DNA of 64,000 bases from positions 3,741 to 67,740 of the forward strand of contig JACOXD010000005.1 in the NCBI GenBank assembly GCA_016176465.1, given 5' to 3'. A model generated the notes under the pieces. The model was not told the DNA's origin. It did not search any database and was given only the letters and a program-made list of their open reading frames with translations. The DNA is from Candidatus Daviesbacteria bacterium. Lineage in GTDB: Bacteria; Patescibacteriota; Microgenomatia; Daviesbacterales; UBA10151. Positions 18,096 through 21,305 of the stretch are shown one piece after another. Each line of letters opens with the position of its first letter. The first letter of the stretch is position 1. The position numbers and the translations under genes are program-made.

Positions 18096-18146
18096 CCTAA
18101 ATCCTCAACTCCACCTATCATATAGAAAGCTTGTTCTAGTTTGAAG
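18096..18146. repeat. duplicated copy of the atpD 3' end (pseudo-terminus)
   Basis: 18098-18150 matches 19889-19941. 27/27 nt are identical (TAAATCCTCAACTCCACCTATCATATA) and about 45/51 overall. On the minus strand it reads …[18 protein letters not shown] versus the genuine atpD C-terminus …[19 protein letters not shown]. Confidence 0.75.
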
Positions 18147-18155
18147 TTTTTAACT

Positions 18156-18479
18156 TTAATCTCTAATCCTAGTAAACTTCCTTTTAAAATCTTTACCTGA
18201 TTTTAATTCTCTTAAGAGCACTTTCTTTTTATTTTCTACTGACTCATCTTTTAGGCGAAGAAGTATCACGCCTTCATGAACTAACTTTTCTTTGAAAACT
18301 AGCTCACCAAAATCTTTATCTGAAGTTACAAGAATTCTATTTTCTTTATTTGCTAAATTTAAAATATCAATATCAGGTTTGCTAAGAGCTACTTCTGTTG
18401 CAGAGATAACATCATAACCTAAACTCCTTAAAAACTCGGGTACTTTAACTCCTAAATTTTCATCTGTTATGAATCTCAT
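18156..18479 (-). CDS. DUF5615 (PIN-like) toxin-like protein; probable start at the internal Met (MRFITDENLG…)
   Basis: ITDENLG…VTSDKDFGEL… is the DUF5615 core. The ORF track extends to 18530, but the upstream part overlaps the DUF433 partner gene. Confidence 0.65.
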   Translation of the reverse strand: MRFITDENLGVKVPEFLRSLGYDVISATEVALSKPDIDILNLANKENRILVTSDKDFGELVFKEKLVHEGVILLRLKDESVENKKKVLLRELKSGKDFKRKFTRIRD

Positions 18480-18702
18480 GAAGGTAGGAAGCGGCTTGTG
18501 GTTTTGGTTTGGAAACTTTTTTCGCAGCATATTCTATAGCTGCTTTGATATCAGCCTCCTTCAGCTGGGGAAAATCTTCCAAAATATCCTTGATAGTCAG
18601 TTTCTGAGCTAAAAGCCTAAGAATTTGTTCAACAGTTATCCTAGTTCCTTCAACAACTGGTTTCCCTAACATAATTTTAGGATCAATAATAATCTTCGCC
18701 AT
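18460..18702 (-). CDS. DUF433-family antitoxin-like protein
   Basis: …MLGKPVVEGTRITVEQILRLLAQ…, paralogous to 13223..13498. Confidence 0.7.
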   Translation of the reverse strand: MAKIIIDPKIMLGKPVVEGTRITVEQILRLLAQKLTIKDILEDFPQLKEADIKAAIEYAAKKVSKPKPQAASYLHEIHNR

Positions 18703-18915
18703 ATATACATTTTACCATAATCACTATTGCAATTTTTCTTTAAAAGCAAATGCTTGCATTATGCATTGTGATGGTTTATGAGTGATACACTCAGCTGCTA
18801 TAGCATTTTTGTGTATCATTAATTTAACAATTTATAGCACCTAGGATAATTTTTTAAATAAATCTTTCTCAAAAGTAGCTTGCAATTTTCTGATAAAAGA
18901 GAATAATACTACTTT

Positions 18916-19872
18916 ATGTTAGAGGCTAGAGTTATAGATATTCAAATCCAACCCCTAAAAGGTGGTGGGCCTTTAAAATTTTCAGCAGCAAGAATGACCA
19001 GGGCTGGTTTAGAAGATGTAGACGGAGTTATCCAAGATCATTTTTTGGCACCAGTTACTAGAGAACAAGATGATCATGGATTCCATAATTTTTTAACACA
19101 AAGAGTTCAGGTAAATCCTGCTAAGAATTTATTTGTTCCAGGTTCACCTAGACTTGCTTTAGTTAGACCTAATATTAGCGATTTTGGATGTTATTTTACC
19201 TTTGATGGGCAAAGCGAGATAGAGGATCGTGGACTTGCAGAGGATGACCTCTCAAGAGTTATCCCTGTGCAGATTTGGGAATACAGGGGAGGAGCTATTG
19301 AAGTTCCTGATCTCTCAGAGTGGTTGAGTGATAATCTGAAAAGAAACGTTTTAGTAGCCAGAACCAGTGGACCATGGAACAGAATGGCAAAACAAAATTT
19401 TATGAGAAATAATAATCCTCTAAGAGCCCAAGATGGATATCCAGTACATACAGTTTCTTCTAATGATACAAAAGCTGTATTTGGGGCAATTAAAGCAGAA
19501 GATGATCCGAATAGGTTTAGGTACCAAGTGCTTTTAGAATTTCCAGGAGGAACTCCGTTTAGAGCAATTCATGATTATGCTGAGGGAGAAATTAATGGTG
19601 TTAGGGTATTTCAGCCCAAAGCATGTGATAGATGCGAAGTTACTGGAATAGATCAACAAACTGGAGAGTTTAGTGGTATCAAACCCTTAGCAGGAATCGT
19701 TCAAGCAGGTGGAACTCGTTGGATTCGACCTGATAACGGGAATAAGGTTCACATTATGGGGGAAAACTGGCTACCTCAGGGTAAAACTATTATAAGAGTC
19801 GGCGATACATTTACATTTACCAAATTAAGAGAAACCCCTCTACAGTTCGAAGAACCAAAAAAAGTTCTTTAA
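18916..19872 (+). CDS. MOSC-domain protein (YcbX-like)
   Basis: An N-terminal beta-barrel-like region plus the conserved MOSC cysteine motif …[16 protein letters not shown]…. The stop overlaps the atpD stop. Confidence 0.45.
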
Positions 19873-21305
19873 GCAGCTTTAGCTGAGGATAAATCCTCAA
19901 CTCCACCTATCATATAAAATGCTTGTTCTGGAAGTTTGTCCCATTTGCCCTCTAGGATCTCTTTAAATAGTTGGACAGTTTGTTTTATAGAAACATATTT
20001 TCCTTTCCTTCCTGTAAATGCCTCTCCTACAAAGAAAGGTTGAGTTAGGGCTCGCTGGATTTTTCTTGCACGAAAGACCGTTAATTTATCCTCATCAGAT
20101 AATTCCTCAATTCCTAAAATAGCAATGATATCTTGAAGATCCTTATATCTTTGCAAGACTTTTTGAACTGCTACAGCTACTTGATAGTGATCATCACCAA
20201 CAACTGATGGATCCAAAGCCCTTGATGAAGATGCAAGGGGATCCACTGCTGGATATAAACCCTGCTCTGCCAAAGATCTCTCTAAGGCAATTGTAGAATC
20301 TAGGTGGGCAAAAGTAGCAGCAGGTGCAGGATCTGTATAGTCATCTGCAGGAACATAAACTGCTTGAACTGATGTAATAGATCCCTTTTTAGTTGAAGTA
20401 ATTCTTTCTTGCAGGGTGCCCATTTCTGTAGCTAAAGTTGGCTGATAACCCACAGCAGATGGAATTCTTCCAAGTAATGCAGATACCTCAGATCCTGCTT
20501 GTGAGAATCTAAAAATGTTATCTATAAATAACAAAACATCTTTTCCTTGATCATCTCTAAAGCTCTCAGCAATAGTTAAACCAGTTAATCCTACTCGCTG
20601 GCGCGCTCCTGGAGGTTCATTCATCTGTCCAAAAACTAAAGCTGTCTTTTTAATAACACCACTTTGTACCATATCATGATATAAATCATTACCTTCTCTT
20701 GATCTTTCACCAACTCCTGCAAAAACAGAAAAACCCCCATGCTCCGTAGCAATATTTCTAATTAACTCTTGAATTAAAACAGTCTTACCAACTCCAGCTC
20801 CTCCAAATAGCCCTACTTTTCCTCCTTTAACAAAAGGGGCGAGTAGATCTATAACTTTTAATCCTGTTTCAAAAACTTCAGAAGTTGTGGATTGTTCCTC
20901 AAAGCTGGGAGCATGGCGGTGTATAGGAAGAGTTTTCTTTGCTTTAACAGCACCCTTTTGATCAATAGGATCTCCCACCACATTTAATAATCTTCCTAAA
21001 ACTTCTTCACCAACAGGAACTGAGATAGGGTTGCCTGTATCTTCTACACTCATACCCCTTTGTAACCCATCTGTGGATCCCATGGAAACTGCTCTAACCA
21101 CTCCTTCACCTAAATGTTGTTGTACTTCTAAAACAAGTTTGTCATTCTGAGCCGAAGGCGAAGAATCTCTTTTAGATCCTTCACTCCGTTCAGGATGACG
21201 AGGAAGGGTAATTTCCAAAGCATTATAGATTGCAGGAATTTTTTCCTCAGCAAACTGAAGATCTACAACCGGACCAATAATTTGAGTTATTGTTCCTTTA
21301 TTCAT
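19869..21305 (-). CDS. atpD: F0F1 ATP synthase beta subunit, carrying an in-frame family-1 element insertion
   Basis: Walker A GGAGVGKT and …DELSDEDK… The N-terminal barrel has about 18 extra residues ([18 protein letters not shown]) relative to E. coli AtpD. Confidence 0.9.
21141..21199. repeat. family-1 palindromic element inserted in frame in atpD
   Basis: GTCATTCTGAGCCGAAGGCGAAGAATCT…AGATCCTTCACTCCGTTCAGGATGAC. 59 nt, with no stop codon in the gene frame. Confidence 0.8.

What the first reader, a model, noticed from the sequence alone, without database searches (positions are those of the whole stretch)
18096..19941. atpD 3'-end duplication bordering a 1.8-kb insert (TA pair + MOSC gene) that splits atpD from atpC
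Bacterial atpD and atpC are normally adjacent. Here 3.8 kb separates them. Within that span, 18098-18150 is a degenerate copy of the real atpD terminus at 19889-19941: 27 nt are identical and about 88% match overall, and on the minus strand the copy still reads …[13 protein letters not shown]…. The two copies are direct repeats flanking the DUF5615/DUF433 pair and the MOSC-domain gene, whose stop overlaps the atpD stop. This looks like site-specific integration into the 3' end of a protein-coding gene. The incoming DNA supplied a replacement gene terminus and displaced the original. No integrase remains. The rest of the gap (beta-CA-like mini-protein, HAD fragment, two GC-richer hypotheticals) suggests at least one further insertion at the same spot.
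Basis: seen in the sequence. Interest (0 to 1): 0.7.

Follow-up and report, generated by a model that had tools for sequence, protein, structure and literature searches.

The report
Recurrent cassette insertion site in atpD's end
The last 15 or so codons of the ATP-synthase beta gene (atpD) are duplicated on either side of a 1.8-kb insert carrying a toxin-antitoxin pair, and the same layout recurs in five related Daviesbacteria sequences, so this gene end is a repeatedly used landing site for small mobile cassettes that carry no integrase of their own.

Summary
A 27-nt exact match (18098-18124 = 19890-19916), 39/45 over the coding block, duplicates the atpD terminus as a direct repeat. It brackets a MOSC-like gene and a DUF433/DUF5615 toxin-antitoxin pair, here called TA1. 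Independent Logan assemblies reproduce both junctions.

The window comes from a Candidatus Daviesbacteria genome (CPR). In this clade atpD and atpC are never adjacent. The gap is 0.5-9.5 kb and its content varies. Only the Pro_CA_2 gene next to atpC is conserved, so that gene is ancestral.

A displaced atpD-terminus relic ("relic" below) occurs in five other Daviesbacteria loci:
- It always lies downstream of a TA or TA-like pair.
- It starts about 18-21 nt before the Tyr-Met codons in the four relics whose 5' edge is intact.
- One locus holds a tandem array.

The TA1-to-relic junction is homologous in three genomes. TA1 is less diverged at synonymous sites than the neighbouring core genes, so it spread horizontally.

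No integrase or transposase was found in any insert, in 65 gap ORFs of relatives, or near atpD.

Best reading: att-type (Campbell) insertion at a defined site in the atpD terminus, leaving integrase-less, CIME-like cassettes. The enzyme is unknown. Spread by homologous recombination, with the relic as a homology arm, is a serious rival.

The parts
19869..21305 (-). atpD (F1 beta subunit), intact, 478 aa. Its last codons form the proximal repeat copy.
   Evidence: ORF. 80-83% identical to Daviesbacteria atpD.
19890..19934 (-). Proximal copy of the terminal coding block ([15 protein letters not shown]), functional and att-like. The 27-nt exact core is 19890-19916. The tail SSAKAA* follows at 19869-19889.
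   Evidence: nhmmer E=3.8e-12.
18916..19872 (+). o318, a divergent MOSC-domain (YcbX/mARC-like) gene, convergent with atpD with overlapping stops. It is cargo lying between the repeat copies.
   Evidence: Homologues sit in the atpD-atpC gap of L089 (62%) and L167 (52%).
18460..18702 (-). DUF433 antitoxin-like gene of the TA1 cassette.
   Evidence: Pfam E=5e-23. 85-92% aa identity to L170 and L171.
18156..18479 (-). DUF5615 / Mut7-C PIN-like toxin gene of TA1 (107 aa from the internal Met). Its stop lies 5 nt from the relic region.
   Evidence: Pfam E=5e-21. Identical NCBI protein annotated in Candidatus Daviesbacteria; many homologues at 77-85%.
18086..18142 (-). Distal relic of the atpD terminus: block [15 protein letters not shown] at 18098-18142 plus its own tail GKV* at 18086-18097. 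Homology may extend to about 18151.
   Evidence: nhmmer E=1.4e-11. The junction with TA1 is homologous in L170 and L171.
16644..18059 (+). Older, lineage-specific gap cargo: ORF104 (16644-16958), ORF181 (17149-17694) and ORF99 (17760-18059). All are convergent with atpD and have no family assignment.
   Evidence: ORF181 has only one close homologue (74%, L086) and a 32% homologue directly after atpD in L123.
16246..16611 (+). Pro_CA_2 (carbonic-anhydrase-like) gene, a conserved ancestral neighbour of atpC in this clade. It is not part of the insertion.
   Evidence: Pfam E=1.8e-17. Homologues at 55-69% in the gap of relatives, next to atpC in L001, L095, L101, L167 and L170.
15674..16093 (-). 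atpC (epsilon subunit), separated from atpD by 3,775 nt, with its own promoter-like site at 16132-16105.
   Evidence: (Pfam ATP-synt_DE_N).

Best explanation
The two copies are the left and right junctions (attL/attR-like) of DNA inserted by a single reciprocal (Campbell-type) recombination at a defined site of about 45-50 nt. That site is the last 15-17 codons of atpD. Because the incoming DNA carries its own copy of this block, atpD stays intact and one block copy is displaced downstream as a relic.

The site is used repeatedly in Candidatus Daviesbacteria by very small cassettes of 0.6-1.8 kb. Their constant component is a toxin-antitoxin or TA-like pair sitting directly against the relic. 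The TA pair presumably keeps the cassette from being lost.

The cassettes encode no recombinase. They therefore behave like cis-mobilizable (CIME-like) remnants: att-flanked elements that depend on a recombinase supplied in trans or since lost.

In the window, the DUF433/DUF5615 pair (TA1) plus its junction with the relic was acquired horizontally from another Daviesbacteria lineage. The MOSC-like gene lies between the functional terminus and TA1, either as co-transferred cargo or as a later arrival at the same site.

Shown: the repeat; its recurrence; the common 5' boundary; the tandem array; the horizontal spread of TA1; the absence of recombinase genes.

Inferred: the reciprocal-recombination mechanism; site-specificity; which copy is resident.
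For: 1. The direct repeat brackets the insert, and atpD stays intact.

2. The same layout recurs in five other Daviesbacteria-type loci with different cargo:
- L096: 161-aa ORF plus HicB/HicA, then relic KPETAFYMIGGLEDLK*.
- L097: 210-aa ORF plus Asp_protease_2/DUF5678, then relic.
- L090: the same module and relic, then a 214-aa homologue and a second protease gene, which makes a tandem array.
- L170: TA1 alone between the real terminus and the relic.
- L171: 76-aa ORF plus TA1, then relic.

3. Relics with three unrelated upstream sequences all begin 18-21 nt upstream of the Tyr-Met codons. Identity is 81-87% downstream of that point and at chance level upstream.

4. The DUF5678-to-relic junction is homologous in L090 and L097. 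The TA1-to-relic junction is homologous in the window, L170 and L171. TA1 homologues at other genomic sites (L172, L174) have no relic.

5. TA1 genes show 0.62-0.70 third-position identity within identical codons between the window, L170 and L171. The same measure is 0.44-0.48 for atpD and 0.48-0.56 for Pro_CA_2 and atpC. TA1 is therefore younger than the host split. The genes on either side of TA1 and the relic differ among the three genomes.

6. Outside this clade atpD and atpC are mostly 0-150 nt apart. Inside it the gap is always large and variable.
Against: - No integrase, resolvase or transposase domain was found in any of the six inserts, or in 65 gap ORFs from 19 relatives.
- No XerD-like ORF was found in the 64-kb window or in 28 related loci.
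- No autonomous element or viral contig carrying the block was found.
- The repeats are not identical beyond 8-27 nt.
- The relic block resembles the functional block of its own genome about as well as any other allele, ranking 1-3 of 28. That is equally explained by gene conversion.
- No isogenic empty site was found.
- The boundary in the window can also be read up to about 9 nt further upstream.
- The MOSC-like gene is as diverged from its homologues as the ancestral Pro_CA_2 gene is, so it may be an old resident rather than recent cargo.
Confidence: 0.5

Rival explanations
1. Spread driven by homology, with no dedicated recombinase. One or a few ancient illegitimate events created a TA-to-relic junction. 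Since then the cassettes move between Daviesbacteria by DNA uptake and RecA recombination. The conserved atpD block, and the relic carried by the cassette, serve as short homology arms or as the single crossover site of a circularised fragment.
For: - It explains the complete absence of recombinase genes.
- The TA1-to-relic junction is inherited as a unit, while the flanking genes are those of the recipient.
- The block holds exact runs of 14-27 nt between alleles.
- The window and L001 share a 47-nt exact run at the terminus, the longest among 28 atpD pairs. This suggests exchange at this spot.
- Natural competence is widely predicted for CPR bacteria (my own knowledge, not tested here).
Against: - Three unrelated junction types share nearly the same 5' boundary. 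Independent illegitimate events would rarely give that; a rough estimate is about 2% by chance.
- The atpD 3' end is not unusually similar between the genomes that share TA1. The last 25 codons are 0.60-0.61 identical at the nucleotide level, against about 0.72 for the whole gene. So no long donor tract accompanied TA1.
- Allele divergence of 72-78% is high for RecA recombination.
Confidence: 0.3
2. Long target-site duplication made in place. Each TA cassette inserted by a transposition-like or template-switch event with cuts staggered about 50 nt apart around the atpD stop. Both copies were then identical at birth and the distal one has since decayed.
For: - Relics show decay: a 47-nt insertion in L090; a 6-nt duplication and a 15-nt deletion in L170; a 5' deletion in L171.
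- In L170 both copies end in TAACC.
- The share of differences at third codon positions (13 of 21) fits a constrained copy paired with a neutral one. It rejects only a uniform distribution, P=0.007.
Against: - The TA1-to-relic junction is shared by three genomes with different neighbours, so it was not created afresh in each.
- The tails after the block differ completely in the window (SSAKAA* against GKV*) and in L090 (K* against GKSS*).
- The L096 relic carries a natural alternative allele (PETAF) that is closest to the functional terminus of L092.
- TA1 at other sites makes no duplication.
- I know of no transposase that makes duplications of about 50 nt (my own knowledge).
Confidence: 0.08
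3. The arrangement is ancestral and vertically inherited. The duplication is old and is kept similar by gene conversion with the functional terminus, and nothing has moved recently.
For: - A 27-nt perfect tract flanked by differences looks like a short conversion tract.
- The MOSC-like gene is as diverged as the ancestral neighbour.
- The insert's GC content equals the window mean.
Against: - Gap content differs in every relative.
- TA1's synonymous-site similarity exceeds that of the core genes.
- Most relatives have no relic.
- The relic-bearing loci carry unrelated cargo.
Confidence: 0.07
4. Assembly artefact: a chimeric join at a short repeat.
For: None found.
Against: Two independent Logan contigs are 100% identical across both junctions. 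Analogous structures occur in five unrelated assemblies.
Confidence: 0.01

Closest known systems
Cis-mobilizable elements (CIMEs) and tandem accretion at the 3' end of a protein-coding gene, e.g. ICESt1/ICESt3-related islands at fda in Streptococcus thermophilus (review PMC5704250; PMC3234194)
   Same: [quoted passage not shown]
- There are no integration or transfer genes.
- Tandem arrays form by repeated use of the site.
   Different: - No related autonomous element or integrase of matching specificity was found.
- The cassettes are far smaller, 0.6-1.8 kb.
- A TA pair always abuts the distal repeat.
- The host is a CPR bacterium and the target is atpD.
Tyrosine-integrase genomic islands and prophages that integrate into the 3' end of tRNA or protein genes and restore the gene end
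   Same: - The gene end is duplicated.
- The identity block runs from a fixed 5' point to the gene end.
- Different cargo recurs at one site.
   Different: - No integrase lies next to either junction in any of six loci.
- The two copies carry different tails after the block.
Integron gene cassettes, where TA cassettes are common in chromosomal arrays
   Same: - Small, mostly one- or two-gene units.
- The units accumulate in an array at one site.
- TA modules are frequent.
   Different: - The block has no attC-like hairpin (fold z-scores -1.2 to +1.0).
- There is no intI and no attI.
- The repeat is a coding fragment of an essential gene.
Minimal mobile elements: variable islets between conserved genes, exchanged by transformation and homologous recombination (described in Neisseria; my own knowledge)
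   Same: Variable content lies between two conserved flanking genes (atpD, and Pro_CA_2 with atpC) and changes across related genomes.
   Different: Minimal mobile elements leave no duplication of a flanking gene end. Here a relic with a fixed boundary marks the insertions.

Membership tests
Site-specific integrative element in the 3' end of a gene | Direct repeats (attL/attR) flank the insert, and one of them is the functional gene end | tested here: met
   27-nt exact match and 39/45 over the block. Profile E=1.4e-11.
Site-specific integrative element in the 3' end of a gene | Integrase or recombinase gene within the element | tested here: not met
   The insert ORFs are MOSC-like, DUF433 and DUF5615 only. 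No recombinase family appears in the other five inserts or in 65 gap ORFs. No XerD-like ORF was found.
Site-specific integrative element in the 3' end of a gene | The same site is used by different elements, with a constant crossover boundary | tested here: met
   Six loci and three junction classes. The boundary lies 18-21 nt before the Tyr-Met codons. L090 holds a tandem array.
Site-specific integrative element in the 3' end of a gene | An empty site in a close relative, and an excised circular form | not testable with these tools
   The nearest atpD relatives are only about 83% identical. Reads cannot be mapped with these tools. Logan contigs from four runs show only the filled state.
CIME (cis-mobilizable element) | Retains attL and attR but lacks integration and transfer genes (definition in PMC5704250) | tested here: met
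   Same evidence as the first two rows above.
CIME (cis-mobilizable element) | Derived from, or mobilised by, a related autonomous element with the same att specificity | tested here: not met
   No such element was found in about 30 Daviesbacteria loci or in IMG/VR contigs. The sample is small.
Integron gene cassette | An attC imperfect inverted repeat that folds as a hairpin, with intI and attI adjacent | tested here: not met
   Single-strand folds of four block copies are no better than shuffles. No integrase was found.
IMEX (Xer/dif-dependent integrating element) | The repeat is a dif-like 28-bp site with two Xer-binding arms | not tested
   No dif model for CPR bacteria was available. By eye the block has no clear dyad symmetry.
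Type II toxin-antitoxin pair, DUF433 / DUF5615 (PIN-like) | Two small adjacent or overlapping genes matching both families | tested here: met
   Pfam E=5e-23 and 5e-21, with a 20-nt overlap. Activity was not tested.
MOSC-domain protein (YcbX/mARC-like) | MOSC_N beta-barrel plus a MOSC domain with the conserved cysteine | tested here: inconclusive
   Pfam hits are below threshold: E=0.01 and 0.06, in the right order. A three-sequence profile hits the mARC1 MOSC domain at E=5e-4. The CDRCEVTG motif is invariant in the three homologues.

The most novel reading that the evidence does not exclude
The atpD-atpC gap of Daviesbacteria is an integrase-free cassette array. Toxin-antitoxin cassettes carry a copy of about 50 nt from the end of an essential, highly conserved gene as a portable landing pad. 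They enter new genomes after DNA uptake by recombining with the resident atpD end. This duplicates the end, so ATP synthase stays intact, and the TA pair then blocks loss of the cassette. It would be a self-sufficient way for TA modules and their cargo to spread in bacteria that have few classical mobile elements.
Probability: 0.25. Interest if true: 0.75.

Novelty: new variant of a known kind. Interest (0 to 1): 0.55.

Why it matters
- How type II toxin-antitoxin modules move between genomes is poorly understood. How the small genomes of CPR bacteria gain genes with so few recognisable mobile elements is also unclear.
- Here a concrete, repeatedly used insertion site can be read directly from sequence. 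It has a defined boundary, tandem accretion, horizontally spread TA cassettes and no recombinase in cis.
- If the mechanism is site-specific, an unidentified trans-acting recombinase targets an essential ATP-synthase gene.
- If the mechanism is homology-driven, short relics of conserved genes act as portable homology arms.
- Either way, the finding explains why the atp operon is split in this clade and why atpC has its own promoter-like site.
- It also gives a simple marker, the relic of the atpD end, for finding further cassettes in metagenomes.

Tried and rejected
- **Strain polymorphism at contig ends.** Logan contigs L084 and L085 stop inside or at the end of the relic. Their mismatched heads are Nextera adapter sequence, so the ends reflect coverage and give no evidence for an empty site.
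- **GC content as evidence of foreign origin.** The insert is 0.357 and the window mean is 0.357, so there is no signal.
- **A second relic elsewhere in the window gap or in L001.** None was found by repeat search, peptide regex or nhmmer.
- **attC-like hairpin in the block.** Not supported.
- **A phage or plasmid attP carrying the block.** Two degenerate patterns gave 0 hits in IMG/VR.
- **A recombinase in cis.** A crude tyrosine-recombinase motif regex, Pfam on 65 gap ORFs and phmmer with E. coli XerD were all negative.
- **Co-transfer of the atpD 3' end with TA1.** Similarity is not elevated between the genomes that share TA1.
- **Terminus duplication at other TA sites.** None at the second DUF433/DUF5615 pair beside tRNA-Tyr. 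None at the TA1 homologues of L172 and L174.
- **Codon-position test.** The excess of third-position differences (13/21, P=0.007 against a uniform distribution) does not separate 'two functional alleles' from 'one constrained copy plus one neutral copy'. I do not use it as a decisive argument.
- **Exact look-ups.** The window's atpD and both TA1 proteins (DUF433 and DUF5615, as I delimited them) are not on record.
- **Literature.** No paper in the held library describes atpD as an integration site in CPR bacteria.
- **Rfam.** Only tRNA-Tyr was found in 12000-24500.
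Full report
**Shorthand.** "Relic" means the displaced distal copy of the atpD terminus. "Block" means the roughly 45-nt terminal coding stretch of atpD that is duplicated. "TA1" is the DUF433/DUF5615 toxin-antitoxin pair at 18156-18702. "o318" is the 318-aa MOSC-like gene at 18916-19872.

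**What is there**

atpD lies at 19869-21305 on the minus strand and atpC at 15674-16093 on the minus strand, 3,775 nt apart. Reading from atpD toward atpC, the gap contains:
- o318, a 318-aa gene convergent with atpD. Its stop overlaps the atpD stop.
- TA1: DUF433 at 18460-18702 and DUF5615 at 18156-18479.
- A fragment of the atpD terminus at 18086-18142, the relic.
- Three unassigned ORFs convergent with atpD: ORF99, ORF181 and ORF104.
- A Pro_CA_2 gene at 16246-16611.

The relic shares a 27-nt exact run with the functional terminus, with 0 of 100 shuffles reaching two matches. The match is 38/40 ungapped and 39/45 over the coding block. A profile of 24 Daviesbacteria-type atpD termini (the window's own included) finds it at E=1.4e-11. 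It reads [18 protein letters not shown], against [22 protein letters not shown] for the real end.

Two independent Logan contigs from run SRR12113424 are 100% identical to the window across each junction. The structure is therefore not an assembly artefact.

o318 is a divergent MOSC protein. Its Pfam hits are below threshold, but a three-member profile reaches the MOSC domain of mARC1 at E=5e-4.

**Whose genome, and what is normal there**

The closest atpD genes (80-83% identity) and an identical DUF5615 protein are annotated as Candidatus Daviesbacteria, a CPR/Patescibacteria lineage.

I surveyed 80 genome loci and 80 metagenome loci. Outside this clade, atpD and atpC are mostly 0-150 nt apart. 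In every one of the 12 Daviesbacteria-type loci in that survey that contain both genes, the gap is large and variable, from 531 to 9,473 nt. The gap contents are almost entirely non-homologous between loci.

The one recurrent gene is Pro_CA_2, which sits next to atpC in L001, L095, L101, L167 and L170 and is also in the gap of L134, L123 and L117. That gene is ancestral. The split of the atp operon is a clade-wide feature, not a peculiarity of this window.

**The duplication recurs**

A Smith-Waterman scan, a peptide regex and the nhmmer profile find a second copy of the atpD terminus downstream of atpD in five other loci:
- L096: atpD, a 161-aa ORF, HicB/HicA, then the relic KPETAFYMIGGLEDLK*.
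- L097: atpD, a 210-aa ORF, Asp_protease_2/DUF5678, then the relic.
- L090: atpD, two small ORFs, a repeat element, Asp_protease_2/DUF5678, then a relic split by a 47-nt insertion. After it come a 214-aa homologue of the L097 ORF (36% identity) and the end of a second protease gene. This is a tandem array.
- L170: atpD, TA1 homologue, then the relic.
- L171: atpD, a 76-aa ORF, TA1 homologue, then the relic.

In all six cases a TA or TA-like pair sits directly against the 5' side of the relic.

Where the relic's 5' edge is intact, homology starts 18-21 nt before the Tyr-Met codons. Beyond that point it drops to chance level, although the upstream sequences are unrelated: a DUF5615 stop, a HicA stop and a DUF5678 start. 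In the window an alternative alignment extends homology by up to about 9 nt.

**The cassettes move**

- The DUF5678-to-relic junction is homologous in L090 and L097.
- The TA1-to-relic junction is homologous in the window, L170 and L171, with lineage-specific deletions. TA1 homologues at other genomic sites (L172, L174) have no relic.
- The genes on either side of TA1 and the relic are unrelated in the three genomes.
- TA1 genes show 0.62-0.70 third-position identity within identical codons between these genomes. The same measure is 0.44-0.48 for atpD and 0.48-0.56 for Pro_CA_2 and atpC. TA1 therefore arrived after the hosts diverged.
- The HicBA cassette of L096 recurs in the gap of L092 with sharp boundaries and no relic. 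TA cassettes are thus units in their own right.

**What was not found**

- No integrase, resolvase or transposase domain occurs in any insert or in 65 gap ORFs of relatives.
- No XerD-like ORF occurs in the window or in 28 related loci.
- No viral contig carries the block.
- The block does not fold as an attC-like hairpin.
- Base composition gives no signal.

**Interpretation**

The layout is that of a Campbell-type insertion at a defined site in the gene end. One copy of the block is the functional gene end and the other lies at the far side of the insert. The 5' boundary is constant, the site is reused, and arrays build up by accretion. These are the properties of attL/attR scars of elements that integrate into the 3' end of genes.

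Because they lack recombination genes, the cassettes fit the definition of cis-mobilizable elements (PMC5704250). That is the explanation I favour, at 0.5.

The main rival, at 0.3, needs no dedicated enzyme. Once a TA-to-relic junction exists, DNA uptake and RecA could spread it, with the conserved block as the crossover site.
- In its favour are the total lack of recombinases and the 47-nt exact run shared by the window and L001 at the terminus. That run is the longest among 28 atpD pairs.
- Against it are the shared boundary of three unrelated junction classes and the lack of co-transferred atpD sequence.

I consider a long in-place target duplication, or a purely vertical history with gene conversion, less likely. 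The reasons are the shared junctions, the differing tails and the synonymous-site evidence.

I cannot say which copy in the window is the resident one:
- L001 has a tail like the functional copy (SSTKAVA*).
- L168 and P0018 have tails like the relic (GKT*, GKN*).
- Most relatives simply end in DLK*.
- The block is too short to place phylogenetically.

Insertion at the atpD end that preserves the terminus, the absence of an integrase and repeated use of the site all hold.

The corrections are as follows. The atpD-atpC split and the Pro_CA_2 gene are ancestral in the clade. The 1.8-kb insert is composite: TA1 with its relic junction travels independently of the MOSC-like gene, whose homologues lie in the same gap in L089 and L167. 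Site-specificity remains an inference.

**Novelty**

I found no description of atpD as an insertion site, or of such integrase-less TA cassettes in CPR bacteria, in the held literature. I rate this a new variant of a known kind.

Noticed in passing
window 21175-21200 (atpD) and 21945-21970 (atpG), minus strand: A 26-nt repeat (CGTCATCCTGAACGGAGTGAAGGATC, 0 and 1 mismatch) lies in frame inside two adjacent ATP-synthase genes. It adds [14 protein letters not shown] loops. The atpD genes of L089 and L090 carry inserts at the same loop, while L001, L167, L096, L168 and L002 do not.
   Followed up: partly
window 13223-13910: A second DUF433/DUF5615 pair (30% identical to the first toxin) ends 1 nt from the 3' end of tRNA-Tyr (13837-13910, minus strand). 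L001 has tRNA-Tyr 44 nt before the PBP1A gene with no TA pair. L168 has the same TA-plus-tRNA-Tyr unit (85% and 76% aa identity) but inverted relative to PBP1A. No tRNA-end duplication was found.
   Followed up: partly
window 22289-22594, minus strand: A 101-aa ORF of unknown function sits between atpA and atpG. In L167, L168 and L170 these two genes abut. The atp operon in this genome therefore seems to be interrupted at a second place.
   Followed up: no
related loci L002, L094, L096; L150; window 16246-16611: The atpD-atpC gap of Daviesbacteria often holds carbonic-anhydrase-like genes. Pro_CA_2 sits next to atpC in several loci. Homologous ~500-aa proteins recur in the gaps of L002, L094 and L096. 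The Pfam CDCA family (cadmium carbonic anhydrase) matched three unidentified gap ORFs. L150 holds a complex-I/hydrogenase-like cluster. A functional link to the ATP synthase was not examined.
   Followed up: no
window 16105-16132, minus strand: A promoter-like site (TTGAAG, 16 nt, TATAAT) lies just upstream of atpC. This fits with atpC being transcribed separately from the rest of the operon. No intrinsic-terminator-like site occurs anywhere in 15600-21400.
   Followed up: no
window 19878-19899: The functional atpD tail begins with an inverted copy of the preceding codons (AGTTGAGGA-TTTA-TCCTCAGCT, a 9-bp stem), right where atpD and the convergent MOSC-like gene meet. The relic lacks it.
   Followed up: no
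L090 10690-10770 and 11443-11486; L168 10020-10110: GC-rich, MITE-like repeat sequences occur in the gaps of relatives. A 47-nt insertion splits the L090 relic between its Phe and Tyr codons.
   Followed up: no
window 17697-17717, 18722-18745, 18876-18900; L086; L092/L096: A recurrent motif of the form (A)GCTTGCAATTTTT lies upstream of several gap genes and is conserved after the ORF181 homologue in L086. It is probably a promoter -35 region, so the cassettes may each bring their own promoter.
   Followed up: no
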